The position numbers and the translations under genes are program-made. A stretch of 64,000 bases of DNA from Escherichia phage vB_EcoM_EP57. Of this stretch, positions 15,851-43,750 are shown in pieces; positions within the stretch are counted from its first letter, which is position 1, and every line of letters starts with the position of its first letter. Below the pieces are notes generated by a model that saw nothing but the letters and a program-made list of their open reading frames with translations, did not search any database and was not told the origin of the DNA. The stretch lies in sequence record OR544956, one strand, 5' to 3'.

Positions 15851-16188
15851 AAGTTTAAATAATTTGAGGAATTTTTGAGATACTCTCTACGGTGCTGTAG
15901 GAGCCTTATTTCTGTGCTACAAAGTGACACCTTTGTTCTAAAAATGAAAAAAGTTAAAATATCACAAATATCGTCTTTGCGGTATTTTGTCTGGGAAAAG
16001 TATTTCGATCAGTTTATTATGATATTTGCCTAAAAGATTCTGCCCTTTCCAGGTGGCAGGGTTTAGCACCCCTGGTTCATACATCCCCATTCCAATTCCG
16101 TAAACCTTATCGTAGGGGCTTGCTTCAACAAACGTTTTGTATTGGTAAAGGTGTAAGTCTGCATACAAATCTGGATTCTGTACATATT

Positions 16189-16305
16189 TCAAGGATTGAC
16201 TTCCAAACGTTCTTCATCCTCTTTATAACAATCCAACACTGCTTTAAGTTCATCATAGTGGTTCAGAATAGGTTTAAAGATTTCATGATCTGCTAAACGT
16301 GCCAT
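16189..16305 (-). CDS. small hypothetical protein (38 aa)
   Basis: hand-found ORF with AAGGAGAAACT RBS. Confidence 0.3.
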   Translation of the reverse strand: MARLADHEIFKPILNHYDELKAVLDCYKEDEERLEVNP

Positions 16306-26846: not shown

Positions 26847-26852
26847 AACTTA

Positions 26853-26877
26853 AAGGCGCACTTTGCGCCTTTTTTGA
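26853..26877 (+). terminator. rho-independent terminator
   Basis: AAGGCGCA-CTTT-GCGCCTT plus TTTTTTG. Confidence 0.65.
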
Positions 26878-26946: not shown

Positions 26947-28196
26947 ATGAAAGATTTGTACCAAGATGTTTTTTCTTTTTTAGATCGCACTTCAGAAACA
27001 TACACTAGAGAGAATGCAAACAAACCTTCCCACCTCGTTAACACACACAGGGATCTCTTGGCGGGGATTTTAAGCAAACATATGGCAATGACACAGATAC
27101 TGCCAAAAAACTTGTCAGAATGGCATACAGAAGGTTTTGGACATATTCACGACTTGGATTATCTGCTCTCTCCTCTTACAAACTGTTGTCTTGTTAATTA
27201 CCAAGATATGTTAGAAAATGGTTTTAAGATCGGTGCTGCACAGATAGAAAAACCAAAATCTATTGGAGTAGCTACCACAGTGCTAACTCAAATCATCCAA
27301 GCTGTAGCATCCAGTCAGTATGTCTGTTCCTTTGAACAAAGAAGTTACGGGATCAGCAGATGGTACTGTTACGAGTATGGGTTGTCGTTCCTTTTTGTCG
27401 TACTATGCCACCGAACAAGGAGAAAAATATGATGGACGATTCAACCTTGAGACATACCAAAGCATCTGAAAACCCTATTCTTTTCATGGAAGGGGCTTTA
27501 GCGCGTTTAAATGCCAATGATGAAATTGGTGTTTTGTTTGAAGATGGTTATGCTTCTATTAGTATTGGTTATGTAGGTCTTGCCGAAGCTTTGGAAATCC
27601 TTTATCCAGAAGAAAAAGATAAAAAGGAACTTGGTAAAAGCATTCTGCAACATATGAAAGATGTGTGTGCTGTGTTTAAAGAACGATCTAAGCTGGCGTT
27701 TAGTCTCTATGGAACTCCAGCAGAATCCTTGTGCTATAAGTTTGCAACAGCTTTAAATAAAAAATACCCAGGTTTGGTAGAAAGAGACTATCTTACTAAC
27801 TCTTTTCATCAACCTGTGTGGTTGGTAACAAATCCTTTTGAAAAATGGGATTATGAAGCAGGTTTTGCACAGATTAGTAATGGTGGTAACATAAGTTATG
27901 TCGAAACACCAAACTTAAAGAATAACTTAGAAGCTTTGGAGACTTTAGTAGACTACGCTTATGAACATATTCACTATTTTGGTATTAATCAGCCCGTGGA
28001 TCAATGCTTTAAGTGTGGTTTTCATGGGGAATTTAAGGCAACGGCTAAAGGGTTTGAGTGTCCTGATTGTGGCAACCATGAAGAAGAAACTATTTCTGTA
28101 GTTAGACGTGTATCAGGGTATCTTTCTGCCCCTAATTCACGGCCTTATAACAAAGGTAAAATGCAGGAAGTTTTGCAAAGGGAGAAACATCTTTGA
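26947..28196 (+). pseudogene. nrdD: anaerobic ribonucleotide reductase nrdD, disrupted
   Basis: RDLLAGI, HIHDLDY, MGCRSFL, glycine-radical RVSGY, C-terminal Zn ribbon; read across three frames and lacks central part. Confidence 0.75.
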
Positions 28197-28663
28197 ATTT
28201 TGCAGGATATGAACCTGTAGATCTTATTAATGGTGAGGGAGTTAGGTGCTCCCTCTGGGTTAGTGGTTGTAGCCACGGTTGTCGTGGCTGTTTTAACCAA
28301 AAAGCCTGGTCTTATTCTTATGGGAAACCGTTTACTCACGAAAATGTAGAGCAAGTTTTAAAAGATTTGTCAAGACCGTTTGTAAAAGGTTTAACAATTT
28401 TAGGAGGAGAGCCATTAGATCCGCAGAATATTTACAATGTTAAAAACCTTATAGAAAAGGTTAGAGATGTTTATGGGTCAAGCAAAGATATAATGGTGTA
28501 TACAGGATATACTTTTGAGGAAGTGCCTTTGTATATTAAAAATCTTGTTGACATTATTGTAGACGGAAAGTATGAAATAAACAATCCAACTACAAAACCT
28601 TTCAGAGGGTCAGATAATCAAAGATTATGGACCAAAACGGCAAGTGGTTGGCAATCAGATTAA
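28193..28663 (+). CDS. nrdG: anaerobic RNR activating enzyme (radical SAM)
   Basis: CSHGCRGC C-x3-C-x2-C motif; follows nrdD. Confidence 0.75.
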   Translation: MNFAGYEPVDLINGEGVRCSLWVSGCSHGCRGCFNQKAWSYSYGKPFTHENVEQVLKDLSRPFVKGLTILGGEPLDPQNIYNVKNLIEKVRDVYGSSKDIMVYTGYTFEEVPLYIKNLVDIIVDGKYEINNPTTKPFRGSDNQRLWTKTASGWQSD

Positions 28664-28676
28664 CTTAGGAGGTTTC

Positions 28677-28868
28677 ATGGTTACATATTTTGCTGTAGGA
28701 GATAGAGTAGGGACGGCAGGACAACTTTTGAAGAACAGTGATCGGGACGTTAAGGACATTCTTGCAACCCTTGTGGATATTTTACAAAGAAAAGAGTTGC
28801 TTTCTGATCGAGATGTTGCTAAATTACTTGATATCGGAGGAGATGAACTTCAAAGACTTCCATTTTAA
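28677..28868 (+). CDS. hypothetical protein (63 aa)
   Basis: ORF trimmed to ATG after AGGAGG. Confidence 0.45.
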   Translation: MVTYFAVGDRVGTAGQLLKNSDRDVKDILATLVDILQRKELLSDRDVAKLLDIGGDELQRLPF

Positions 28869-28883
28869 GTGAGGAGATAAGTA

Positions 28884-29489
28884 ATGCAACATAGTGTAGT
28901 AGTCAACATGCCGAATAGTGGGGATAAATCTTTTGGTGTCCCTGCTAAAAAAGTGTGGAAAGCCCATTTTCATCTTACTTTATCTAACGTTAGTTCTGAA
29001 GAGTTGATGAAAGCAGCTAAGATTATTGGTGCCAAATGCACAACAATTGATTTACATCGGGATACAAAGTCTCAACGTGATCGTATGTTAACAAAGTATC
29101 AAAGCGATCTCGACACTACTTTAATGTTGCAGTGTGTAGAAAAACTTGAGAATGCAGGTTTCAATGTTGTTCGTTACAAACTGGAACGAATGTTTAAACA
29201 TGTTGCCTGTGTTCTTTTCATGGATCTAAGTAAAGAAAATTACGGAGAAGTTCACATTAAGACTTCAGCAAGTGATCCCGAAGTAGAAACAAACTTCTTC
29301 CGTATTTCTTCTAATGCTGAAGAAATTGATTACCGATTTTATAATGCTCGCTTATATTCCGCAGAAGATAAGTTGCGTTTCAATGAAGCGTATGATATGC
29401 TCTTGAACAGTGGGATACAGATAAAAGGCTACCACATAGAACAAGTGGTAGTGGACAGTAATCTTAACTTAGACGCATGGTGGGCTTAA
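28884..29489 (+). CDS. hypothetical protein (201 aa)
   Basis: ORF; one HLTL (HxTx-like) motif only. Confidence 0.55.
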   Translation: MQHSVVVNMPNSGDKSFGVPAKKVWKAHFHLTLSNVSSEELMKAAKIIGAKCTTIDLHRDTKSQRDRMLTKYQSDLDTTLMLQCVEKLENAGFNVVRYKLERMFKHVACVLFMDLSKENYGEVHIKTSASDPEVETNFFRISSNAEEIDYRFYNARLYSAEDKLRFNEAYDMLLNSGIQIKGYHIEQVVVDSNLNLDAWWA

Positions 29490-29490
29490 T

Positions 29491-30147
29491 ATGACCATTA
29501 AACATATCTCTTTTGATGTATGGAACACACTGATCACAGCAAACTCCAATTACGCAGACATGCGAGCCTGGACTATCGCAAAATATGGAGATATTACGGA
29601 AGTGGAAGCAAGAGCAACTTATAAGAAGATCAAAAAGGAACTGGATAATGCAGCACTTCAAGGCAAAGCCGAGTGTGCAGCATACGCCTGGGAAAGACTT
29701 GGTTCTGAATTTGGGATAACGCCTTGGAAGTCTGCAAAGCTTCGTTTCGAGTGTGAACAGTGGTTCCTTAAGTTTCCACCACACGTAGCCGTAGATCTGC
29801 CGATGTACTTGCTGTATCTTTCTGGGCGTTATGATTTGAGTATTAAGAGCAATACCAACTTCATATCAGGGGATATTCTGCGTCGTGCTTGTAAGTTTGA
29901 TAGTTGGAATTGTTTTGAGTTCACCCATTTCTCGGATGAAGCTTTACTTTGTAAACCAGATCCGCGATTCTTTGCTCGCACGCTCACGTATTCTCCGATC
30001 CCTCTGTTAGGGCACGAAGTGTTGCACGTAGGCGATAGTGAAGAATATGATGGAAAATGTGTTGACTTAGGGTTTAACTTCTGTCATATTAAGAACCCTA
30101 ACGACTTACTAGAGAAACTTAAAAGAGGAGAAATTGTAAATGCGTAA
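29491..30147 (+). CDS. HAD-superfamily phosphatase
   Basis: FDVWNTL, KPDP, GDSEEYD motifs. Confidence 0.6.
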   Translation: MTIKHISFDVWNTLITANSNYADMRAWTIAKYGDITEVEARATYKKIKKELDNAALQGKAECAAYAWERLGSEFGITPWKSAKLRFECEQWFLKFPPHVAVDLPMYLLYLSGRYDLSIKSNTNFISGDILRRACKFDSWNCFEFTHFSDEALLCKPDPRFFARTLTYSPIPLLGHEVLHVGDSEEYDGKCVDLGFNFCHIKNPNDLLEKLKRGEIVNA

Positions 30148-30967
30148 TCAAACTCAAATTTTTGCAAATAAATTTGATGACCTGGAAACTGCTACTTTTG
30201 ATATCCAAGATTATTCAAAATTGAAATTTGGTAGTAACCAAGCTGCGCGTCGTATGGGTAAAGAATTGGCACTTCAGTTTTTTGCTCAAGTGGCAATGAA
30301 ACATATTGGGGAACAATTTGTTATCATTCCTTCTCCTTACAACCATGTGTATAATGCTGCAACAATGATGACAGATCATTTTATTAATTACTTCAATATG
30401 TTGCAAGCACAATATGATCAAGGTCGTTCAGCAGAACTGGACATTATTCATCGTAAAGTTAGCTATATCAACGATTATGGTTTCTTGGATAAAGCTAGTC
30501 GTAAGAAACTTATTGATGGGGATACATTCTACTGTAACAAAGAATTCTGGGGGGATAAGAAGCTTGTATTCATTGATGATGTAAATATCACTGGAACGCA
30601 TGAAGACAAACTGATTGAGATCCTTAATGAAAATCAAGTTAAAAATGATGTTTACTTCCTGTATTTTGCAAAATATGAAGGTAATCAAGCAGATACCGAA
30701 GCTAAACTGAATTTTAACTACATTAATACACCGGAAGCGTTTGTTAAAATGATTAATGAAGAACGTGATGCACAGTGTCTTGTTCGTCCTATTAAGTATC
30801 TTATGGGCCAAAATCATGAAGACTTCAAAATCATTCTTAGCCAATTGCCACATTACTATGTAGAGCAACTTTTCTTTGGATGCTTGGGAGAAGGTTACAA
30901 CCGAATTTCAAAGTATGCTGAAAACTTTGAATTCTTGGATCGTTACACAAAACAACACATTCTGTAA
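30140..30967 (+). CDS. type-I phosphoribosyltransferase-like protein
   Basis: PRPP-binding motif LVFIDDVNITGTHE. Confidence 0.6.
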   Translation: MRNQTQIFANKFDDLETATFDIQDYSKLKFGSNQAARRMGKELALQFFAQVAMKHIGEQFVIIPSPYNHVYNAATMMTDHFINYFNMLQAQYDQGRSAELDIIHRKVSYINDYGFLDKASRKKLIDGDTFYCNKEFWGDKKLVFIDDVNITGTHEDKLIEILNENQVKNDVYFLYFAKYEGNQADTEAKLNFNYINTPEAFVKMINEERDAQCLVRPIKYLMGQNHEDFKIILSQLPHYYVEQLFFGCLGEGYNRISKYAENFEFLDRYTKQHIL

Positions 30968-30980
30968 TAAGGAGCTAAAA

Positions 30981-31454
30981 ATGCTTAAAATGAAAACAGG
31001 TAATCTTATTGATGCCGCTAAAGCAGGTGAAGTAACTGTTATTGCTCATTGTTGCAACTGTATGTGTAATATGGGGGCAGGTATTGCCCCACAAATCAAA
31101 CGAGCATTTCCTTACGCATATGCAGCAGACTTAGGCACAATGGCTGGTGATCAAAGTAAACTAGGTTGTTTTAGTTTAGGGGTGCCAGACGAACAATCAG
31201 ACCCTTTGGTATATAATCTATACGGGCAATACCGTTACGGATACAATGCTAAAGGTCGTCAGTTGGACTATGATGCACTTTACGATGCACTAATAGCTAT
31301 GGCTAACGATTTGCTTCTCCGTGACCAAAAATGTAAGATCGGCTTACCTATGATTGGCGCTGGATATGCTGGAGGTAATTGGGCTATCATCCAAGTGATG
31401 ATTGAAGAAACTTTAGTAAAAACAGGTTACGATGTGACTATTTATAAACTTTAA
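30981..31454 (+). CDS. macrodomain protein, TARG1/DarG-like
   Basis: IAHCCNCMCNMGAGIA and GLPMIGAGY..VTIYKL resemble TARG1. Confidence 0.65.
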   Translation: MLKMKTGNLIDAAKAGEVTVIAHCCNCMCNMGAGIAPQIKRAFPYAYAADLGTMAGDQSKLGCFSLGVPDEQSDPLVYNLYGQYRYGYNAKGRQLDYDALYDALIAMANDLLLRDQKCKIGLPMIGAGYAGGNWAIIQVMIEETLVKTGYDVTIYKL

Positions 31455-31466
31455 GAGGAGATTAGT

Positions 31467-31688
31467 ATGGGTGTTTTTGCAGGTATTGTTGCAGTGGTAA
31501 GCTTTTTTGTTATTGCTTTTATGCTTAGTTTGATTCCAGCTTGGTTATTGTTGCTGGCTTACAACTATGTTGCTGAGGTTATGGGTCATGCAGATATCAC
31601 TGTCCCAGTAACCTTCTGGACCGTGGTTTGTGTTTCGTTTATTCTGGCTGTATTACGAGGAATCTTTTCCTCTCATTCAACAAAATAA
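31467..31688 (+). CDS. small membrane protein (73 aa)
   Basis: two hydrophobic helices. Confidence 0.5.
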   Translation: MGVFAGIVAVVSFFVIAFMLSLIPAWLLLLAYNYVAEVMGHADITVPVTFWTVVCVSFILAVLRGIFSSHSTK

Positions 31689-31691
31689 GTG

Positions 31692-31750
31692 TTGACATAG
31701 TTCTTAAAAAGAGTAAGATGTATCACATGAAGCGGGGAATAGTTCCCCGC
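31692..31750 (+). promoter_or_regulatory. early promoter + 5' hairpin cassette (PeSL-like), plus strand
   Basis: TTGACA-N17-TAAGAT, gtatcacat, hairpin gcggggaatagttccccgc. Confidence 0.6.
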
Positions 31751-31767
31751 AAAGAGAGGAGAAAAGA

Positions 31768-32686
31768 ATGCAACTTGGTTTCCCAATTATTGATGTAGTT
31801 GTTTTAGTTGGTATTTTAGCATTGTCTATTGGTATTGATTTCTTTGGTCACAAAGAAAATAAAGAAATTTCATTCAAATCCGCAGTTGGTTGGTCGATCT
31901 TTTGGATTGGTGTATCATTAGCTTATTATGGTTTTGTATACTTCCAACATGGTGCCGATTTTGCTAACTTGTTTTTAAGTGGATATGTGTTGGAAAAATC
32001 TTTGTCGGTAGATAACTTGGTAGTATTTGTAGCAGTATTCGCAAGTTTTGGTATTAAAAGCACACACTTGCAGCACAATAGGCACTTACTTGTTAAGTTT
32101 GGGCTGGTATGTTAATATCTTCTTCGGTGCGGTCATCCTTTTCTGTGCAGCTAAAATGGTATTTGCTGGAGATAATGACGCAGAAGTTGATTACTCTAAA
32201 CACTGGGCTACCCGTATTGTTCGTAAACTGTTCCCTGTATCTAATAAAATGGATGGGGAGAAGTTCTTCACAATCGAAAATGGTGTTCGTGTAGCAACTC
32301 CAGCTTTGGTTTGCGTATTCGTGATGGAAATGGTGGATGTAATCTTTGCAGTAGATTCGGTTCCAGCGGTGATCGCAGTGACACAAGAACCCCTGCTTGT
32401 ATTCTCTTCGATGTTATGTGCAATCTTAGGTCTACGTGCTCTGTTCTTTGTTCTTAGTGTCGCACTGAAGTATCTGGTTCACTTGGAGAAAGCAGTTATT
32501 GTGGTTCTGGTGTTTGTAGGCGTTAAACTGATGTATCACCCGTTTGCAGAAACATTGCATGAGAAAATGAGTTTCCTGCCAGCACATATTGATCCAACTA
32601 TTAGTATGTATATCGTGCTTGGTACTTTGGCCCTTGGTGTTATTGCAAGCTTTATCTTCCCTGAAAAAGAAGAAGCTACTGTTTAA
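31768..32686 (+). CDS. terC: TerC-family membrane protein, frameshifted
   Basis: LSVDNLVVF and QH motifs; ORFs 31768..32115 and 32048..32686. Confidence 0.65.
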
Positions 32687-32691
32687 TAAAT

Positions 32692-32717
32692 GAGCCTCCT
32701 TCGGGAGGCTATTTTAT
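32692..32717 (+). terminator. rho-independent terminator
   Basis: GAGCCTCC-TTCG-GGAGGCT plus ATTTTAT. Confidence 0.6.
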
Positions 32718-34311: not shown

Positions 34312-34902
34312 ATGCATACCGAGAGAGACTTGCAACTCTTGTGGTGGGAAGTGATGCAGGAAATAAAAGAAGATTTTCCTGTTTACTACAACATGTTACG
34401 TGAAGCAGGATATAAAGCTTGTGTTAGAAACAAAGTGAATAACTCTTTCGGTTGGTGCAACTACCGAGATAAAATTGTTGTTGTAAATTGGCACTTGCAT
34501 AAGAACTCCACAAGAGATATGATCGTGGATACAATGAAGCACGAAATTGCTCATGCTATTGATGGTTGTATGGGTAAGTTTAGTAGGCACGGTGCTCATT
34601 GGCAAAAACTGGCAGCAGAATTAGGGGCTAATCCTAAAGCCACTTCCAAAGAGCCGTTGAACCACGAATATAAATATGTTCTTGTTCTGGTAGATAGGTT
34701 TGCGACAAGATGTGTTAGAGGTTATAATCGTAAACCTAATCGCATGTACCCAGGTAAGCAACCTAATATGTGGTTGAAATCAGATAAAGAAGGGACCGAA
34801 GGAAAATTATGGTTGTATAAATGGGACGATTGGGTTAAAGTAGCTAAAGAGTACGGTGTTTCACCATATATAAGAGATGCAGAAGAGGAGAATGAAGAAT
34901 GA
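34312..34902 (+). CDS. SprT-like zinc metalloprotease
   Basis: HEIAHAI with downstream HG.HW. Confidence 0.55.
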   Translation: MHTERDLQLLWWEVMQEIKEDFPVYYNMLREAGYKACVRNKVNNSFGWCNYRDKIVVVNWHLHKNSTRDMIVDTMKHEIAHAIDGCMGKFSRHGAHWQKLAAELGANPKATSKEPLNHEYKYVLVLVDRFATRCVRGYNRKPNRMYPGKQPNMWLKSDKEGTEGKLWLYKWDDWVKVAKEYGVSPYIRDAEEENEE

Positions 34903-36011
34903 CAAGTCCATTTTTAAAAGCAGCTACTGGTGGTCAGAAGAAGCCTGAAATGAGCGTATTTGCTGCAACAACAGATGCAAGTAAATCTGTATTCGCTCCA
35001 AGCGTGTTAGATGCCAGTCCTGTTTATGCACCAGCGGCACCGCAAGAAGTTCCAGTTTTGCCTTCTATGACCCGACAAGAGATCGAAGAGATTGGGGCAG
35101 AGGCAGGAACAACCTTGCGTTCCTTGAATGCCGAGGTATTAAAACATCAACGTAGTAATCAAGGCGATCAGATGAGTGAACGACTCACAGCTTTGATTAA
35201 ACAGGCAAAACAACTTGATCCAAACTCTATTAAACAAAGCAAGGGTATTACTAAACTCATTAAAAAAGTTATGGGTATGAAAGAAGACCTGTTTGGGGAG
35301 TTTGATAATGTTAATAACCGTATTGAAGAGTTGGTAAAGAACCTTCAAATGGATATTCGCAAAGAAGAAGATTCCTTGGTATATCTTGAAAAGCTACATC
35401 AAGCTATTGGACAATATGCTGCAAGTTTGAACCGAGATATGCAGCTTCTAACAGCAACCTATGAAAAAGAAGAACAAGCTTTGGCTGCTCTTCCAGAAGA
35501 TGCAGTAGAACAGCGACAAGTGATCCGAGATACTTTGGATCTTCTGGAGATTCGTATTGCAGATTTAAAAGCATTGCGCCTACTGTGTGTCCAAATGGGA
35601 CCGCGTGTACAAGGTATGCAAAAAGTTTCTGCAAGCTTAATGCGATCTGCGCGTAACATAGTAAATAATGTTATTCCTGCTTACTCTGCTAACTTCTCAA
35701 TGTATATAGAGAGCTTACGTCAAATGAAAGCAGCAGAGACGCAGAATAACGTTCTTGATGAATTTAACCTGGCAATTAAACTGGGTAGCGATCTTGCCAC
35801 ACAGAATCAGATCGAAGCAGCAGCACTGGCTAACCGTCAAGTGTTGGATATTGAAACTCTGCGTCACGATCAGGAAAACTTGGTTAAGATGTTGGAAGAA
35901 ACTAACCGCATCAATACGGAAGCCCGTGCTGCTCGTGTTGATTATATTAATGAAGTTCAATCTCTGGAAGACGGGATGGTAGCTGCTGTGAAACGAGGGC
36001 TTGGTAAATGA
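34899..36011 (+). CDS. coiled-coil protein, possible TelA-like
   Basis: 370 aa helical protein in Ter context; assignment by size and composition. Confidence 0.35.
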   Translation: MTSPFLKAATGGQKKPEMSVFAATTDASKSVFAPSVLDASPVYAPAAPQEVPVLPSMTRQEIEEIGAEAGTTLRSLNAEVLKHQRSNQGDQMSERLTALIKQAKQLDPNSIKQSKGITKLIKKVMGMKEDLFGEFDNVNNRIEELVKNLQMDIRKEEDSLVYLEKLHQAIGQYAASLNRDMQLLTATYEKEEQALAALPEDAVEQRQVIRDTLDLLEIRIADLKALRLLCVQMGPRVQGMQKVSASLMRSARNIVNNVIPAYSANFSMYIESLRQMKAAETQNNVLDEFNLAIKLGSDLATQNQIEAAALANRQVLDIETLRHDQENLVKMLEETNRINTEARAARVDYINEVQSLEDGMVAAVKRGLGK

Positions 36012-37381: not shown

Positions 37382-38176
37382 ATGTCCGAGAAAATCAGCC
37401 TGAAAAAACGTCAAGAAAACCTTGCTTTCTCTCTGAAAAAGAATAAGAACCTGAATGAAGGTAAGATTGTTCTTCGTGTAGCATGTGCTCTAGATATTTC
37501 TGGTAGTATGCATGGTCTATATTCTAGTGGGGTAGTGAGTGATTTTGTAGGTAAACTGCTTCCTTTTGGTATGCTGTTCGACGATAATCAACAAATTGAT
37601 ATGTGGGCCTTCAATACGAGTTCCCAAGAGCTTACTCCAGCAACAGCAGATGTTTACGATGACTATGTTGGTAAATGTATGCGTAATGTTCGTATCGGAG
37701 GTGGAACAAATTACGCCCCTGTAATGGCGGATATCTACGATGAGTATTTTGGCACTGTTACTAAATATATTACCACTAAACAAGTGGTACAAGAGGAGGC
37801 TCCAAAGAAAGGTTTCTTTAATCGTCTACTTGGTAAAACTGAAACAGTATCTGTAGAGCGTGAAAAGGTCGTAGCTGTATCTGAACCAGGTGCTGACGTT
37901 ACCCCTGGTGTTGTATTCTTCCAGACAGACGGTGAGAATGGTGATCCTAGTGCTGTTCGTCGTCTTATCGAAGAGAATAAGAATAAACCTATTTATTGGT
38001 TCATGGTTGGCGTTGGTAATGAGAAGTTTGGCTTCCTGAAAGAACTGGCAAATGCTTATGATAATGTTGGTTTTATTGGCATTAAAGATTTAGACTTGAC
38101 AGATTCAGAGCTTTATGACAAACTCTTATCTGAAGAGTTCGGAGAGTGGGTTGTTAAAGTAGGTGCTAAAAAATGA
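37382..38176 (+). CDS. vWA-domain protein, TerY-like
   Basis: MIDAS motif DISGSM; TerD-like N-terminus ISLKK. Confidence 0.65.
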   Translation: MSEKISLKKRQENLAFSLKKNKNLNEGKIVLRVACALDISGSMHGLYSSGVVSDFVGKLLPFGMLFDDNQQIDMWAFNTSSQELTPATADVYDDYVGKCMRNVRIGGGTNYAPVMADIYDEYFGTVTKYITTKQVVQEEAPKKGFFNRLLGKTETVSVEREKVVAVSEPGADVTPGVVFFQTDGENGDPSAVRRLIEENKNKPIYWFMVGVGNEKFGFLKELANAYDNVGFIGIKDLDLTDSELYDKLLSEEFGEWVVKVGAKK

Positions 38177-38686: not shown

Positions 38687-39289
38687 ATGACTGATAAAAT
38701 TTCCCTGAAAAAAGGCTCTAGCGAAAAAATTTCCCTGAAGAAAGTTGCTCCGGCTCTGAAAGAACTACGCCTGGAATTCTCTTGGAAATCTGATTCTAAA
38801 CTAGATCTGGATGTAAGTGCACTGGTTTGTCGTCACAATGCCGCTGGCAATCCTGAAATGCTGTCTGCACGTCATCTGGTTTGCTATGCTAACAAGTTTG
38901 ATCCTGAACGTTCTACCTTCGCTGGTGACGATGTTCGTGATGGAACTGGCAGCATGGAGCAGATTGATATTACTCTGGCTAAAATCTCTCCTGATGCACA
39001 AGAGATTGCCTTTGTTCTGACCATTGATGATGATACAGGTCTGAAACGTTTTGGTCATGCTTCTGAAGGTATGCTTAAAATCTTCGACTCCGAGCGCAAT
39101 GTGGAAATTCTGGATTTTGACTTCCTGGCTCCTGAAGTAGCTGGCAACACAATCTGCCACGTGGCTTCCTTGGTTCGTGAAGATGGGGAATGGAAGCTGA
39201 AAGCATATGGTGTAGGTAAAGCTGGTCTGGATATTTGTGATGTGGTGATGGCCTTCGGTGGTAAAAAAGAATGGTATGAATGTCCGTAA
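38687..39289 (+). CDS. terD: TerD-family stress protein
   Basis: ISLKKG repeats, LDLDVSAL, GDDVRDGTG, GEWKLKAYGVG; highly optimised codons. Confidence 0.8.
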   Translation: MTDKISLKKGSSEKISLKKVAPALKELRLEFSWKSDSKLDLDVSALVCRHNAAGNPEMLSARHLVCYANKFDPERSTFAGDDVRDGTGSMEQIDITLAKISPDAQEIAFVLTIDDDTGLKRFGHASEGMLKIFDSERNVEILDFDFLAPEVAGNTICHVASLVREDGEWKLKAYGVGKAGLDICDVVMAFGGKKEWYECP

Positions 39290-40605: not shown

Positions 40606-41169
40606 ATGATTTATTATATTACTCCCTATCTGACAGGAAATATCGGCAAGGCTATCAATGAAGCCATTGCCGTTCTTCCAGATGATAGTTGGGTGTGTTT
40701 AAGAGATACCGATACAATGTTCCTCCTACCTGATCAACCATCTATGCTTGAAGAGCTTGTTATGTCAAACCCGCCTTTTGATGTAATAGGTGCAACTTGT
40801 AACAGGTTAGGCAGTGGTTATCAGCTTTTCTCTAACCAAATTAACGATGATCCAGATATTCTAAACCATATAGAATATGCTAAGATTGCAAGAGAATATC
40901 ATAAAGTAAATGTTGAAGAAGTTCCTTTCGGAACACCTCTGGCAGGTTTCTTTTTGCTTTTTAGAAAATCATTGTGGAATGAAATTCCTTTTGAAGAAAA
41001 ATCTATCCAATTCGACTTAATTTTCTCTCGCACTTTACATGAAAAAGGAAAGAGGTTAGGATTGATGCGGGGAATGTATCTGTTTCACATTTACAGATTA
41101 GGTCAAACAAATCCTCAACGGTCTATACATCATTTATTACACTGTCATGATCACAGTAAAACTATTTAG
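40606..41169 (+). CDS. putative GT-A-like glycosyltransferase
   Basis: DTD (DxD) after N-terminal beta-alpha-beta. Confidence 0.4.
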   Translation: MIYYITPYLTGNIGKAINEAIAVLPDDSWVCLRDTDTMFLLPDQPSMLEELVMSNPPFDVIGATCNRLGSGYQLFSNQINDDPDILNHIEYAKIAREYHKVNVEEVPFGTPLAGFFLLFRKSLWNEIPFEEKSIQFDLIFSRTLHEKGKRLGLMRGMYLFHIYRLGQTNPQRSIHHLLHCHDHSKTI

Positions 41170-41177
41170 GAGAGAAA

Positions 41178-41861
41178 ATGGAAAATATTAAAATCGGAGT
41201 GGGTGTTATCACTGTAGGTGTCCGTCCGCTTAAAGACTACCTTGTAACAGATCCACGTGCAGATTTTCGAGTATTCAACGATCCAGATCGTAAAGGTGTA
41301 GCTTATGCCAGGAATGAACTTATGCACCAGTTTTATGAAGAAGGTTATGATTATTGGTTTATTTTTGACGACGATTGCTACCCAGTCATGGAGGGATGGG
41401 AAACATATTTTGTAGATCAAGCTGTCTCTGGAGGATGGGATTTCTTTGGTATGCCGGAGTACTTCAAAGATAAAGTTGTTGGAAGCAAAGGAGAAGTTAT
41501 TCTCTGGGAACTTGCAATGTGTCAATTTGCAATGTATTCTCGTGCCGTTGTTGAGAAGATGGGTTATTTCCGTCCTTACACTCACGGTTATGGTTTTGAA
41601 GATGCTGAATGGGGACACCGTTTGCAAGCTGCTGGTTTGAATCATGGTATTCAGGCAACACCTTGTCCACTTCGTATCATGGCTTATATCCACCCAGACG
41701 ATGTTTTTGGAAACAATCCTATGCCTTTTGCTAATCTGACAAAAGAAGAGAAAGAAGCTGCTATTGGGATTAACTGGGAAGAATATAAAGCATCTTTAGA
41801 GGATATTAAAAATGGGAAAATCCGAATTTCCTATGAGGAGGCACTAGCACATGTCAAATAA
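41178..41861 (+). CDS. GT-A (family 2-like) glycosyltransferase
   Basis: FDDDCYP DxD and GFEDAEWG. Confidence 0.55.
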   Translation: MENIKIGVGVITVGVRPLKDYLVTDPRADFRVFNDPDRKGVAYARNELMHQFYEEGYDYWFIFDDDCYPVMEGWETYFVDQAVSGGWDFFGMPEYFKDKVVGSKGEVILWELAMCQFAMYSRAVVEKMGYFRPYTHGYGFEDAEWGHRLQAAGLNHGIQATPCPLRIMAYIHPDDVFGNNPMPFANLTKEEKEAAIGINWEEYKASLEDIKNGKIRISYEEALAHVK

Positions 41862-42798
41862 AAAATGGTCTAAACTAAAAATTGATGCAAAACCTCACAG
41901 CGGTTGTGACTATCATCGTATTGTTATGCCATTTAACAACAATAATATTCAACCTAAGAAAGATGCTGTTGTGTTTAACCGTATCCACTCTAAAGGTGCA
42001 GAATACGTTTTATCTTTGAAACGTCAAGGTGTTAAGATTGTTGTAGATTTAGATGATTTCTACCAACTTAATCCAGAACATTATTTAGCAAGTCTATACG
42101 AGTCAAACACTCATGCTATTGTAGCTATGGTTAAGCTTGCGGATGTGGTTATTGTGACTACGGAATATTTGGCATATAAGATCCGTCACTTAAATAGGAA
42201 TGTTGTTGTGATCCGAAATGCACTTCCTTTTGATAGTGGACAATTCACTTTGTCAAATGATCGTTCATCCGGTACCCCTGTTGTATGGGCTGGCGGTGCT
42301 AGTCACGAACCAGACTTACGACTAGTCTCTAATACTTTCGATGATGAACTTCTTACTATTGCGGGATATGAAACATCACAAAGCATCACGGGACAAGAGT
42401 GGATTAAGATTCGCAGAAATTTACCAAATGCTAAATATAAAGCCGCTGTAAAAGATTTAGATAATTACATGAGTGTTTACGAAAGTCATGCTATTGCTAT
42501 AGCTCCTTTGGTAGATAACGATTTTAATAATTGTAAAAGTAATCTCAAAATCCTGGAAGCTGGAGCAAAAGGTATTCCAATTGTTTGTTCTAAGGTATTA
42601 CCTTATTTTAACCCTGTAGATGCTCGCGCTGTTGCTTACGCAGAGAATAAAGCAGAATGGCATTACGAAATTGTTAAGCTTCTTCGCAATCCAAACTATC
42701 GGGAAGATCGTGGCTTGTTCTTGGCTGAACATGTTCGAACACATTATAATCTGGCAGATGCAAACGAGTTGCGACGCCAGGTTATTGAAAGTTTGTAG
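41851..42798 (+). CDS. GT-B-fold glycosyltransferase
   Basis: KSNLKILEAGAKGIPIV donor-binding motif. Confidence 0.6.
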   Translation: MSNKKWSKLKIDAKPHSGCDYHRIVMPFNNNNIQPKKDAVVFNRIHSKGAEYVLSLKRQGVKIVVDLDDFYQLNPEHYLASLYESNTHAIVAMVKLADVVIVTTEYLAYKIRHLNRNVVVIRNALPFDSGQFTLSNDRSSGTPVVWAGGASHEPDLRLVSNTFDDELLTIAGYETSQSITGQEWIKIRRNLPNAKYKAAVKDLDNYMSVYESHAIAIAPLVDNDFNNCKSNLKILEAGAKGIPIVCSKVLPYFNPVDARAVAYAENKAEWHYEIVKLLRNPNYREDRGLFLAEHVRTHYNLADANELRRQVIESL

Positions 42799-42805
42799 GT
42801 GAAGT

Positions 42806-43750
42806 ATGGGACAAATAATTCTTGACAATCGTAACGGAATCAATTATAGTGTCTGCGATTTCCATAGGGTAGTGCTGCCTTACTCAAGGCAGTTCTCTTC
42901 ACAACCTAAACACAACGTTTTCGTTTTTAACGGGGTGCCAACAAAAGGTAAAGAGGGCTTTTTAGCCCTTAAAAACCTAGGCTTTAAAATGGTTATGGAT
43001 TTGGATGACTCTTTAGTTATTCCAAAAGGACACATGTTAGAAGGTATTTTTGAATCAGGTATTCGTGAACATTTAAAATGGTTTTTAGAGCACAGCGATC
43101 TTGTTACAACTACGACACCTGCTTTGCAAGTTGAACTTTCACAATACAATGATAATGTGCACATAATCCCTAATGGACTTCCTTACGATGAAGGTCAATT
43201 TGTGTTGACCCGTGATCGCTACTCCAAAACTCCATTAGTCTGGGCTGGAAGTGAAACACATAAACAAGATTTGGCTATCTTGCCCGATTTTGGTAAAGAT
43301 CTTACAATATGTGGTTTTCGTAGGGATTCTGAAGTTTTAAGTAGTCGTGAATGGTCTGTGATCAGAGAAAATGTAGCACCAACTTGTGTTTATGAAGGTG
43401 TAAGACCATATGCCAACTACATGGAATCTTACGATGGTCATCAAATCAGTCTTGCGCCATTGATTGATAACGTGTTTAATAATGCAAAAAGCAATCTTAA
43501 AATTCTTGAGGCAGGTGCTAAGGGTTTACCTTTGATTTGTTCTCCTCGTGAGAATTATCATACACAAGAGTTTAAAGATTTGTTATTCTTTGCTGAAACA
43601 CCTTCCGAGTGGAAAGATATTACGGAATACTTATTAAGTGCTCCCGATGTTTGCATGGAGAAAGGATTAGCATTAGCTAAGTATGTCAGGACTCATTATC
43701 ACATTGATGTGTTGAATGAGCGTCGTAGACTTTTATTTGAGGAGCTATAA
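42806..43750 (+). CDS. GT-B-fold glycosyltransferase, tandem paralog
   Basis: KSNLKILEAGAKGLPLI; colinear with previous gene. Confidence 0.6.
   Translation: MGQIILDNRNGINYSVCDFHRVVLPYSRQFSSQPKHNVFVFNGVPTKGKEGFLALKNLGFKMVMDLDDSLVIPKGHMLEGIFESGIREHLKWFLEHSDLVTTTTPALQVELSQYNDNVHIIPNGLPYDEGQFVLTRDRYSKTPLVWAGSETHKQDLAILPDFGKDLTICGFRRDSEVLSSREWSVIRENVAPTCVYEGVRPYANYMESYDGHQISLAPLIDNVFNNAKSNLKILEAGAKGLPLICSPRENYHTQEFKDLLFFAETPSEWKDITEYLLSAPDVCMEKGLALAKYVRTHYHIDVLNERRRLLFEEL

What the first reader, a model, noticed from the sequence alone, without database searches (positions are those of the whole stretch)
28884..31454. TARG1/DarG-like macrodomain next to PRTase and HAD phosphatase: possible ADP-ribose or NAD-linked counter-defence
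The protein from 30981-31454 has the diagnostic TARG1-type macrodomain blocks (IAHCCNCMCNMGAGIA; GLPMIGAGY..IEETL..VTIYKL). TARG1 and DarG macrodomains remove ADP-ribose from nucleic acids or proteins, and DarT/DarG is a known anti-phage toxin-antitoxin system that ADP-ribosylates DNA. A phage copy could reverse host ADP-ribosylation of phage DNA. Together with the neighbouring PRTase and HAD phosphatase it could also process ADP-ribose-derived signals or rebuild NAD during NAD-depleting defence. The upstream 201-aa ORF (28884-29489) is unassigned.
Basis: partly seen in the sequence, partly recalled or inferred. Interest (0 to 1): 0.75.

Follow-up and report, generated by a model that had tools for sequence, protein, structure and literature searches.

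The report
Phage macrodomain beside Ter-linked PRTase–HAD pair
A coliphage of the phAPEC8 group carries a small ADP-ribose-removing enzyme of a kind phages are now known to use against bacterial immunity. The neighbouring PRTase and HAD genes belong to a separate, already predicted tellurite-resistance-type (Ter) module, and the fourth gene belongs to an undescribed viral enzyme family.

Summary
Window 28884-31454 has four tightly packed + strand genes in a Phapecoctavirus, 99.4% identical to phage tuntematon.

**Macrodomain (30981-31454).** It is a real macrodomain of the TARG1/DarG/SCO6735/Poa1p class (AF2 pLDDT 91.5; best Foldseek hit TARG1, E 9e-12). It lacks TARG1 Lys84/Asp125 and DarG Lys80. 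It has the SCO6735-type Asn26/Gln83, invariant in 24 homologues.
- Closest characterised relative: the phage ADPR-1''-phosphate phosphatase Adpp of NARP1-AP operons (40% identity to Thalassavirus copies).
- Next: SCO6735, a thymidine-ADP-ribose DNA hydrolase (31%).
- PhiKZ AdfM is not detectably similar.
- The lineage has no NARP1 or NARP2 genes.

**HAD + PRTase_3.** This is a strictly conserved pair (16 of 16 divergent loci). It sits with TerC, TelA, vWA-TerF and TerD, matching the Ter "nucleoside-like metabolite" module predicted in 2012 and 2021. It is not NAD salvage. The macrodomain is not a conserved partner of the pair.

**201-aa ORF.** It belongs to a virus-borne family with no Pfam model (254 cluster representatives). 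Members are fused to NUDIX, HD_4 or Ham1, and PADLOC labels the family "AbiEi".

**Verdict.** A new member of known kinds, of moderate interest.

The parts
28677..28868 (+). Small ORF (63 aa as annotated in relatives; 74 aa from the GTG at 28644), function unknown
   Evidence: PHROG 17780, E 4e-39. Annotated as a 192-nt CDS in relatives. It precedes the cluster in Stephanstirmvirinae loci.
28884..29489 (+). 201-aa protein of an uncharacterised virus-borne alpha+beta domain family. PADLOC labels the family 'AbiEi'. It has no Pfam model.
29491..30147 (+). HAD-superfamily hydrolase, the obligate partner of PRTase_3
   Evidence: Pfam Hydrolase E 4e-4 and REG-2-like HAD E 4e-8. PHROG 14393 'hydrolase'. 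It lies immediately upstream of PRTase_3 in 16 of 16 loci and in CcrColossus and Rhizobium phages. The motifs D9-x-W-N-T, SN, K-P and GDxxxxD are conserved, and Asp+2 is an invariant Trp.
30140..30967 (+). PRTase_3 ('ComF-like') type I phosphoribosyltransferase; the base substrate is unknown
   Evidence: PF15610, E 6.7e-42. The PRPP loop D146 D147 .. T151 G152 T153 is invariant in 24 homologues. The gene occurs in 156 cultured-phage records. No solved relative exists.
30981..31454 (+). Stand-alone macrodomain of the ALC1-like (TARG1/DarG/SCO6735/Poa1p) class, Gln-type active site (Asn26, Gln83, Gly126, Gly128)
   Evidence: establish the fold. Searches give the residues. It is 40% identical to the NARP1-AP macrodomains of Thalassa and Direpillow8, 31% to SCO6735, 28% to TARG1, and has no significant match to PhiKZ AdfM.
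31467..31688 (+). 73-aa protein with three hydrophobic segments; it always follows the macrodomain gene
   Evidence: PHROG 16065. It follows the macrodomain gene in L009-L013, even where insertions separate the macrodomain from PRTase_3.
31768..32686 (+). TerC/Alx-family membrane protein, frameshifted in this window by a 56-bp deletion at about 32076-32078
   Evidence: TIGR03718 hits on both halves. An intact 324-aa gene in relatives matches Pfam TerC at E 1e-38. The deletion is mapped.
32693..32710 (+). Terminator-like GC-rich hairpin followed by a T-run, closing the nrdD-to-terC gene block
   Evidence: This is a consensus scan only.
34899..36011 (+). TelA (toxic anion resistance protein family)
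   Evidence: Pfam TelA, E 3e-33.
37382..38176 (+). vWA-TerF-like protein
   Evidence: PF10138, E 1.6e-37.
38687..39289 (+). TerD-domain protein
   Evidence: PF02342, E 3e-28.
15998..16189 (-). C-terminal remnant of a NADAR gene that is intact in relatives; NADAR proteins are the known anti-DarT1 factor type
   Evidence: tblastn with a phage NADAR gives window E 1e-10 over residues 98-161 only, against the full gene in tuntematon L027:11148-11648 at E 2e-25. The deletion is mapped.

Best explanation
The four genes are co-transcribed neighbours, not one pathway.

**(a) Macrodomain (30981-31454).** This 157-aa protein is a stand-alone ADP-ribose hydrolase of the TARG1-like (ALC1-like) class. It binds ADP-ribose through the HCCN...MGAGIA and GAGYAGG loops. 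It removes whatever is attached to C1'' of the distal ribose. It does this with the SCO6735-type mechanism, in which Asn26 positions Gln83 and water attacks, and not with the TARG1/DarG lysine.

This phage has no NAD-rebuilding genes. I therefore think the protein most likely acts alone, as an orphan-antitoxin-like eraser. Its target would be thymidine- or uridine-linked ADP-ribose placed on phage nucleic acid by DarT2-type host toxins. In intact relatives a NADAR gene of the anti-DarT1 type would complement it. Dephosphorylation of ADPR-1''-phosphate, the Adpp activity, is probably a second activity of the same site.

**(b) HAD + PRTase_3 (29491-30967).** This is a separate, strictly conserved pair. 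The PRTase joins an unknown base to PRPP, and the HAD enzyme is inferred to process the product. This is the 'nucleoside-like metabolite' arm of a phage-borne Ter system, together with TerC, TelA, vWA-TerF and TerD downstream.

**(c) The 201-aa ORF.** It is an independent accessory gene from an undescribed viral enzyme-like family linked to nucleotide hydrolases.

**Shown:** folds, residues, homologies and gene linkage. **Inferred:** substrates and every in vivo role.
For: **Class and fold.**

**Active site.** Asn26, Gln83, Gly126 and His23 are invariant in 24 homologues. They align with SCO6735 Asn27, Gln85 and Gly126/128. In SCO6735, Q85A and N27S abolish thymidine-ADPr DNA hydrolysis, and the protein rescues E. 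coli from DarT (PMC9411070).

**Class-wide activity.** Among the hydrolases tested, only TARG1, DarG and SCO6735 notably reverse T- and U-linked ADPr (PMC13036486).

**Precedents in phages.** Phage orphan erasers are established: AdfM is a macrodomain (PMC13309987) and AdfN is a NADAR protein (PMC11825919).

**Context of the closest homologues.** Homologues about 50% identical sit directly beside or one gene from NADAR in phage NAD/ADPr islands. The tuntematon lineage has NADAR and SIR2 but no Adps, Namat, Nampt or NMNAT. A stand-alone benefit is therefore needed to explain why the gene is kept.

**HAD-PRTase_3 pairing.** They are adjacent in 16 of 16 loci.

**Ter genes.** They are present in the window and next to the pair in three other lineages: L007/L014, L018 and L020. 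The published prediction is in PMC7824862.

**Macrodomain is not a conserved partner.**

**Independence of orf201.**
Against: - The nearest experimentally characterised relative is not a DNA hydrolase. It is the ADPR-1''-P phosphatase Adpp type: 105-111 bits and 40% identity, against 64 bits for SCO6735.
- The SCO6735 DNA-binding lysines Lys34 and Lys89 are Ala33 and Gly87 here (alignment).
- No activity was measured.
- No DarT2 sensitivity data exist for this phage group in the papers I could read.
- The validated Gary Adpp sequence itself was not retrieved. Only two phages of the same genus with the same operon were compared.
- The Ter link of HAD-PRTase_3 was absent from the neighbours scanned in six other lineages.
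- The HAD lacks the Asp+2 general acid of classical phosphatases.
- The Ter 'metabolite' has never been identified.
Confidence: 0.4

Rival explanations
1. The macrodomain is an Adpp-type ADPR-1''-phosphate phosphatase. It converts ADPR-1''-P, the product of RES-domain NAD+ phosphorylases such as the E. coli aRES defence, into ADP-ribose. This would detoxify the product or feed NAD recovery.
For: This is the best pairwise match to any characterised kind. The window protein is 40% identical over its full length (E 2e-34) to the macrodomain lying between Adps and Namat in Vibrio phages Thalassa and Direpillow8. Both belong to the same genus as Gary, whose Adpp was shown to convert ADPR-1P to ADPR and to be needed against aRES (bioRxiv 10.64898/2026.01.28.702374). 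aRES occurs in E. coli. GenBank annotators call the protein Poa1p-like phosphatase. Homologues sit in NAD islands.
Against: No Adps, Namat, Nampt or NMNAT is found in the window or in tuntematon 7.5-150 kb. The ADPR produced therefore cannot be turned into NAD+ by the phage. Removing ADPR-1P alone would not restore NAD+. Macrodomains of this class are found in 2981 phage records. That is far more than the roughly 15% of 859 NARP1 operons that carry one.
Confidence: 0.3
2. The macrodomain is a working part of the PRTase_3-HAD-Ter module. It would trim or recycle an ADP-ribose-like or phosphoribosyl intermediate of the Ter 'nucleoside-like' metabolite. This is.
For: The macrodomain starts 13 nt after PRTase_3. 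The genes share one strand and probably one transcript ending at the 32693 hairpin. The order HAD-PRTase-macro-TM-TerC is kept across Stephanstirmvirinae genera. One distant 197-kb contig has a macrodomain 7 kb from PRTase_3 and TerD (L018).
Against: Outside Stephanstirmvirinae the pair has no macrodomain within 10 kb in 10 of 11 lineages. Insertions of 295-954 bp separate PRTase_3 from the macrodomain in L009-L011. Macrodomain homologues occur mostly without PRTase_3: 2981 records against 156.
Confidence: 0.1
3. PRTase_3, with or without the HAD and macrodomain, is a non-canonical NAD+ or nucleotide salvage route that counters NAD-depleting defence.
For: In Rhizobium phage RHph_TM21B the pair lies two genes from an NMN adenylyltransferase/Nudix gene. 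Phage NAD reconstitution pathways are diverse.
Against: PRTase_3 has no similarity to the Nampt/Namat (PF04095) or Prs families. An obligatory phosphatase-like partner would undo NMN synthesis. The recurring neighbours are Ter genes, not NAD genes.
Confidence: 0.07
4. The macrodomain is a housekeeping RNA-repair accessory. It would clear ADPR-1''-P made by a Tpt1/KptA-type 2'-phosphotransferase after tRNA cleavage.
For: This is the Poa1p analogy. The phage carries tRNA genes and a CCA-adding-type nucleotidyltransferase. Thalassavirus loci have RNA ligases nearby.
Against: No KptA, RNA ligase or 2H cyclic phosphodiesterase is annotated in tuntematon. The 201-aa ORF, my initial 2H candidate, does not have a 2H fold.
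Confidence: 0.05

Closest known systems
Adpp, the macrodomain ADPR-1''-phosphate phosphatase of the phage NARP1-AP pathway (Vibrio phage Gary; bioRxiv 10.64898/2026.01.28.702374)
   Same: Stand-alone phage protein of about 157 aa. It is 40% identical end to end to the copies in two other Thalassavirus phages. It shares the AH-CNC, N-x-YGQY and GLP-IG-G-AGG-W blocks.
   Different: It is not embedded between Adps and Namat, and the lineage has no NARP1 at all. It has Ala33 where the Thalassavirus proteins have Arg. Its activity is untested.
SCO6735 of Streptomyces coelicolor (PDB 5E3B), an orphan macrodomain that cleaves thymidine- and uracil-linked ADP-ribose
   Same: It is the closest solved structure by sequence (E 4e-13, 31% identity). 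It has the same Asn/Gln active-site pair in place of the catalytic lysine, the same long 'mobile loop' length, and a stand-alone architecture.
   Different: The DNA-binding Lys34 and Lys89 are not conserved. Val25 is Cys24 here. SCO6735 is bacterial, not viral.
AdfM (PhiKZ gp104) and the DarG2 antitoxin macrodomain
   Same: Same fold class. The proposed logic is the same: a phage-borne orphan eraser of DarT2 damage.
   Different: 17% identity with no significant BLAST match. AdfM scores 133 bits on the PADLOC DarG model against 37 bits here. AdfM and DarG have the FPTK lysine, while this protein has Gln. There is no DarT-binding domain.
Human TARG1/OARD1
   Same: Best structural match (Foldseek E 9e-12, TM 0.78-0.88) and an identical MGAGIA loop.
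   Different: The catalytic Lys84 and Asp125 are replaced by Gln83 and Ala130 (the TARG1 sequence was verified).
Ter-system 'signal/nucleoside-like metabolite' biosynthesis module (PRTase + HAD), predicted by Anantharaman, Iyer and Aravind 2012 and noted in phages by Iyer et al. 2021 (PMC7824862)
   Same: A PRTase_3 family member with an adjacent HAD, and TerC, TelA, vWA-TerF and TerD within 9 kb. The 2021 paper explicitly mentions 'certain other related smaller tailed phages'.
   Different: No ATP-grasp or TIM-barrel lyase component was seen. In six other phage lineages I found no Ter gene among the neighbours of the pair that I scanned. The HAD has Trp at the Asp+2 position.
NARP1 and NARP2 phage NAD+ reconstitution pathways
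   Same: They also involve a phosphoribosyl-type transferase and, in NARP1-AP, a macrodomain.
   Different: None of the defining enzymes (Adps, Namat, Nampt, Nmnat) is present. PRTase_3 is an unrelated type I PRTase family.

Membership tests
Macrodomain, ALC1-like / TARG1-like class | Macro fold (three-layer alpha/beta/alpha) with closest structural neighbours in this class | tested here: met
   AF2 pLDDT 91.5. Foldseek top 19 hits are TARG1, BT1257, DarG, Poa1p and SCO6735, with E 9e-12 to 1e-8.
Macrodomain, ALC1-like / TARG1-like class | ADP-ribose-binding loops (H-x-x-N...MG-G-A and G-x-G-x-x-G-G) | tested here: met
   H23, N26, G32, G34, A36, G126 and G132 are invariant or nearly invariant in 24 homologues and align to the PDB relatives.
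TARG1 proper | Catalytic Lys84-Asp125 dyad | tested here: not met
   Gln83 and Ala130 occupy the aligned positions (TARG1 sequence verified).
DarG2 antitoxin / AdfM | Catalytic lysine (Taq DarG K80, PhiKZ AdfM K78) with the conserved Asn | tested here: not met
   The Asn is present (N26), but the lysine position is Gln83. AdfM has ..FPTK.. there. Residue roles come from PMC13309987 and PMC9411070.
DarG2 antitoxin / AdfM | Sequence membership and, for DarG, the C-terminal DarT-binding domain | tested here: not met
   The protein is 157 aa with one domain only. The NCBIfam DarG model matches 46 residues at 33.8 bits against a 250-bit cut-off. The PADLOC DarG model scores 37 bits, against 133 bits for AdfM. 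BLASTP against AdfM gives E 0.012.
SCO6735-type (Gln-type) hydrolases | Asn27 and Gln85 equivalents, Gly126/Gly128, and an extended mobile loop | tested here: met
   N26, Q83, G126 and G128 are present, and the alignment through the loop is ungapped. Their importance is shown by mutagenesis in PMC9411070.
SCO6735-type (Gln-type) hydrolases | Hydrolysis of thymidine-linked ADP-ribose on ssDNA; rescue from DarT | not testable with these tools
   This needs an enzyme assay or co-expression with DarT2.
Adpp of NARP1-AP | Homology to the validated phosphatase | tested here: inconclusive
   40% identity (E 2e-34) to the operon-embedded macrodomains of Thalassa and Direpillow8. These belong to the same genus as Gary. 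The operon is 80-100% identical in nucleotide sequence across 49 Vibrio phage records matching the Thalassa operon. Gary's own sequence was not retrieved.
Adpp of NARP1-AP | Gene located within or next to an Adps-Namat operon | tested here: not met
   No Adps or Namat hit at E<=0.01 in the window or in tuntematon 7.5-150 kb.
Ter-associated PRTase-HAD module | PRTase of the Ter-linked families (PRTase_3) | tested here: met
   PF15610, 144 bits against a 28.7-bit cut-off.
Ter-associated PRTase-HAD module | Adjacent HAD-fold enzyme | tested here: met
   The genes overlap by 8 nt here and are adjacent in 16 of 16 loci.
Ter-associated PRTase-HAD module | Neighbourhood with TerC, TerD, TelA and TerF-type vWA genes | tested here: met
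   TerC 31768-32686, TelA 34899-36011, vWA-TerF 37382-38176 and TerD 38687-39289.
Ter-associated PRTase-HAD module | [quoted passage not shown] | not testable with these tools
   This is a prediction only in the literature available to me. The 2012 paper was not held.
NARP1 / NARP2 NAD+ reconstitution | Adps + Namat, or Nampt + Nmnat | tested here: not met
2H phosphoesterase (my initial idea for the 201-aa ORF) | Two H-x-T/S-x motifs on a pseudo-symmetric 2H fold | tested here: not met
AbiEi antitoxin (PADLOC label for the 201-aa ORF family) | Match to an AbiEi model | tested here: met
   PDLC02277 E 4.7e-13 over nearly the full length; 42 of 42 family members hit it.
AbiEi antitoxin (PADLOC label for the 201-aa ORF family) | Adjacent AbiEii (DUF1814) nucleotidyltransferase toxin; similarity to Pfam or solved AbiEi | tested here: not met
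   No AbiEii neighbour in 9 contexts. No Pfam AbiEi hit in 42 members. No PDB sequence hit.

The most novel reading that the evidence does not exclude
The 201-aa ORF would be the novel element. It would represent an undescribed enzyme family of phages and giant viruses with an invariant His/Thr/Arg/Lys/Glu/Asp constellation. It is repeatedly fused to NUDIX, (p)ppGpp-type HD or ITPase domains, sits in NAD/ADPr islands, and is homologous to what PADLOC calls AbiEi. On this reading it neutralises a nucleotide-based host defence, for example as an orphan antitoxin against AbiEii/MenT-type nucleotidyltransferase toxins, or as a degrader of a nucleotide signal. With the Gln-type macrodomain acting without NARP1, window 28884-31454 would then hold two independent orphan-antitoxin-like counter-defence genes flanking a Ter metabolite module.
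Probability: 0.2. Interest if true: 0.7.

Novelty: new member of a known kind. Interest (0 to 1): 0.4.

Why it matters
Phapecoctaviruses (the phAPEC8 group) are common coliphages, and several of the records were isolated on pathogenic E. coli.

**The macrodomain.** Knowing that these phages carry an ADP-ribose eraser of the Gln-type helps predict which host defences they evade: DarTG2, RES-type NAD phosphorylases, or RNA ADP-ribosyltransferases.

The case also exposes a gap. Macrodomains of this class occur in about 6% of sequenced phage records (2981 of 50,697). Only two functions, AdfM and Adpp, have been shown, each in a special context (the phage nucleus, or a NARP1 operon). This gene is a stand-alone copy in phages isolated on E. 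coli K-12. It is therefore a good test of whether such macrodomains act on DNA, on soluble ADPR-1''-P, or on both.

**The HAD-PRTase_3 pair.** With a full set of Ter genes in a 150-kb coliphage, it offers a simple system for finally identifying the long-predicted Ter 'nucleoside-like' metabolite.

**The 201-aa family.** It is a lead to an unknown viral nucleotide-handling enzyme.

Tried and rejected
2. **Homology to the unnamed ORFs beside macrodomains.** I tested the 201/205-aa ORFs beside macrodomains in NAD islands. There is none.
3. **NARP1/NARP2 components in this lineage.** None found.
4. **Macrodomain as a conserved partner of PRTase_3.** Rejected by the locus survey.
5. **Ter genes next to the pair in six further lineages.** None among the ten neighbouring ORFs scanned.
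6. **AbiEii neighbours for the 201-aa family.** None in 9 contexts.
7. **Adjacency of the 201-aa family and the macrodomain in Rheinheimera Barbavirus.** Both genes are present in the genus. Comparing records of near-identical length, they lie about 26 kb apart.
8. **Searches that could not be completed.** Anantharaman et al. 2012 is not in the library. A guessed accession for Vibrio phage Gary returned a different phage of the same genus.
9. **Literature searches.** Searches for PRTase_3/PF15610 and for Phapecoctavirus + macro domain found nothing relevant.
10. **Promoter scan.** It is not above shuffled expectation (19 found against 22.7 expected), so I draw no promoter conclusions.

Full report
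**What the window is.** Window 28600-31700 is 99.4% identical to Escherichia phage tuntematon. It matches 75 phage records, nearly all Phapecoctavirus or other Stephanstirmvirinae. The finding lies between the anaerobic ribonucleotide reductase genes nrdD and nrdG and a run of Ter genes. It sits in a block (window 27450-32078) that aligns to tuntematon without interruption.

**Check of the observation.** Four + strand ORFs are present exactly as stated. They are packed tightly: a 1-nt gap, an 8-nt overlap, then a 13-nt gap. Good Shine-Dalgarno sites precede 28884 and 30981. The quoted peptide blocks are in the 157-aa product.

- By sequence, the 157-aa protein matches solved macrodomains: SCO6735 4e-13, BT1257 5e-9, TARG1 1e-6, Taq DarG 2e-6 and Poa1p 3e-3.
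- An AlphaFold2 model built on 24 homologues has pLDDT 91.5.
- Its best Foldseek hits in the PDB are TARG1 (E 9e-12, TM 0.78/0.87), BT1257, DarG, Poa1p and SCO6735. Alphavirus macrodomains come only after these.
- The PRTase is Pfam PRTase_3 'ComF-like' at E 6.7e-42, with an invariant PRPP loop.
- The HAD assignment is weaker but consistent.

**What kind of macrodomain.** In 24 homologues down to 47% identity, His23, Asn26, Gln83, Gly126, Gly132 and Trp134 are invariant. Aligned with TARG1 (sequence verified), Gln83 takes the place of catalytic Lys84 and Ala130 that of Asp125. The same position is Lys80 in DarG and Lys78 in the phage factor AdfM.

The Asn/Gln pair is the signature of SCO6735. 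Q85A and N27S mutations abolish that enzyme's thymidine-ADP-ribose DNA hydrolase activity, and the authors propose a water-mediated mechanism (PMC9411070). The protein therefore belongs to the TARG1-like class but is not of the TARG1 or DarG type.

**Comparison with the two phage macrodomains of proven function.**

PhiKZ gp104 (AdfM) removes DarT2 marks from DNA (PMC13309987). It shows no significant similarity to the window protein: 17% identity, E 0.012.

The other case is Adpp. A 2026 preprint shows that Vibrio phage Gary encodes a macrodomain between Adps and Namat. It dephosphorylates ADPR-1''-phosphate, the product of the RES-domain defence aRES, so that NARP1 can rebuild NAD+. I could not fetch Gary itself. 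Two phages of the same genus, Thalassa and Direpillow8, have the same three-gene operon. Their macrodomains are 40% identical to the window protein over the full length.

| Compared with the window macrodomain | Bit score |
|---|---|
| Thalassavirus NARP1-AP macrodomains | 105-111 |
| SCO6735 | 64 |
| BT1257 | 51 |
| TARG1 | 47 |
| PhiKZ AdfM | 20 |

**Which substrate in this phage.** Neither the window nor 143 kb of tuntematon contains Adps, Namat, Nampt or NMNAT. They do contain NADAR and SIR2 homologues. Without NARP1, making ADPR from ADPR-1''-P does not restore NAD+.

Removing ADP-ribose from nucleic acid, by contrast, needs no partner. Among the hydrolases tested, only TARG1, DarG and SCO6735 notably reversed thymine- and uracil-linked ADP-ribose (PMC13036486). 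Homologues about 50% identical, on large phage contigs (35-328 kb), sit beside or one gene from NADAR in NAD/ADPr islands. NADAR is the proven anti-DarT1 fold (PMC11825919).

I therefore favour an orphan eraser of DarT2-type marks (0.4). ADPR-1''-P phosphatase is a close rival and a probable second activity (0.3). Sequence alone cannot separate them.

**PRTase and HAD.** I collected 14 viral loci with an alignment of PRTase_3 proteins, plus two metagenomic places. I then searched all loci with the window's proteins.
- The HAD gene lies immediately upstream of PRTase_3 in every one of the 16 loci. The same holds in Caulobacter phage CcrColossus and a Rhizobium phage.
- The macrodomain is adjacent only in Stephanstirmvirinae. 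Even there, insertions of 295-954 bp can separate it from PRTase_3.
- Elsewhere the macrodomain appears once, 7 kb away (L018).

In the window the pair is followed by TerC, TelA, a TerF-type vWA protein and TerD. Ter genes also flank the pair in three unrelated lineages. Among the ten neighbouring ORFs I scanned in six others there were none.

This is the arrangement Aravind's group predicted to make a 'nucleoside-like' Ter signal. They noted it in jumbo phage ME3 'and certain other related smaller tailed phages', and suggested a role in excluding superinfecting phages (PMC7824862). No experimental work on PRTase_3 turned up. One caution applies: the HAD family has an invariant Trp where classical HAD phosphatases have the Asp+2 general acid (the role of Asp+2 is from my own knowledge of the HAD superfamily).

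A profile search found 254 cluster representatives. Some carry extra domains:
- an N-terminal NUDIX domain (3 of 3 tested; 13 representatives share that length and layout);
- an HD_4 domain;
- a Ham1/ITPase domain.

The HD_4 fusion lies next to NAD kinase, Nampt and Nudix genes. The most distant stand-alone copy I looked at abuts an Acb1 gene. Twelve polar residues are invariant across 42 members, which points to an enzyme.

All 42 members hit PADLOC models named 'AbiEi'. Yet none of nine contexts has an AbiEii toxin gene, and no Pfam or solved AbiEi is similar. I report the PADLOC label as a lead, not a classification. In other phages the gene stands alone among small early-type ORFs. Close homologues occur only in Phapecoctavirus relatives and Barbavirus. 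It therefore looks independent of its three neighbours.

**Transcription.** Two GC-rich hairpins followed by T-runs, at 26852-26872 and 32693-32710, bracket nrdD through terC. This fits one transcript. The scan matches consensus patterns only, and promoter-like sites are not enriched.

**Novelty and score.** Each assignable part has a published counterpart:
- phage macrodomain counter-defence factors (AdfM and Adpp, both 2026);
- the SCO6735 mechanism (2022);
- the phage-borne Ter module (2012 and 2021, computational only).

This locus is a new member of those kinds, in a much-isolated coliphage group. What is new here is threefold. First, the macrodomain is placed in the Gln-type/Adpp-like subgroup in a phage that lacks NARP1. 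Second, the HAD-PRTase_3 pair is uncoupled from the macrodomain. Third, the 201-aa family is delineated.

I score interest 0.4.

Noticed in passing
window 8387/8388, 15882/3, 16193/4, 16694/5, 18650/1, 23409/10, 26477/8, 27319-27322, 27449/50, 32076-32078, 36379: Compared with tuntematon (about 99% identical otherwise), the window has at least 11 clean internal deletions of 56 to 1629 bp. Several break genes: nrdD twice, terC (56 bp, frameshift), NADAR and a homing-endonuclease-like gene. They could be natural deletions, an assembly artefact or editing of the window.
   Followed up: partly
window 15998-16189 (- strand); intact gene at L027:11148-11648 (tuntematon gp050): The lineage encodes a NADAR protein, the fold of the proven anti-DarT1 factors AdfN. 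It is annotated only as hypothetical. In this window only its C-terminal third remains.
   Followed up: partly
window 28884-29489 and relatives P0275-P0422: The 201-aa ORF family has 254 cluster representatives. Members are fused to NUDIX, HD_4 or Ham1. The fold recurs in giant viruses, and 12 polar residues are invariant. PADLOC labels the family 'AbiEi', but there is no AbiEii partner in 9 contexts. One member (P0423) lies on a 2.87-Mb contig, presumably a bacterial chromosome.
   Followed up: partly
window 29491-30147 (residues 9-13): HAD motif I reads D-V-W-N-T. The Asp+2 general acid of classical HAD phosphatases is an invariant Trp in all 13 partners of PRTase_3, as in dehalogenase-like HADs. 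The 'phosphatase' label is therefore uncertain.
   Followed up: partly
window 31467-31688: A 73-aa protein with three hydrophobic segments always follows the macrodomain gene in Stephanstirmvirinae, even where insertions separate the macrodomain from PRTase_3. It may be the macrodomain's real partner, or a Ter-side membrane component.
   Followed up: no
L023, L025, L026 (large phage contigs, 35-328 kb): Macrodomain homologues about 50% identical sit in islands that hold NUDIX(-NMNAT), a Glu_synthase-like gene, NAMPT, NADAR, the macrodomain, HAD_SAK_2, SIR2, a Prs-like gene and Thg1. This is a dense NAD/ADP-ribose toolkit.
   Followed up: partly
window 26852-26872 and 32693-32710: Two strong terminator-like hairpins (9-bp and 7-bp GC-rich stems followed by T-runs) bracket the nrdD-to-terC block.
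   Followed up: no
window 40606-43750: Four consecutive glycosyltransferase genes lie downstream of TerD and the SleB-type lysin. Relatives also carry a dTDP-rhamnose pathway elsewhere in the genome. This may mean modification of a host or phage glycan.
   Followed up: no
phage records OP562383.1, MG065650.1, OR584014.1, MH252123.1: Several records with hits in this region carry non-Escherichia names. The Acinetobacter, Campylobacter and Klebsiella phage records are 98-100% identical to E. coli phapecoctaviruses here. The Pseudomonas phage record is 78% identical in PRTase_3. The near-identical host labels look doubtful.
   Followed up: no
L038/L039 5001-6187: One 201-aa-family member overlaps an Rv2179c-like 3'-5' exoribonuclease gene next to thymidylate kinase. 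This is another nucleotide/RNA-end context for the family.
   Followed up: no
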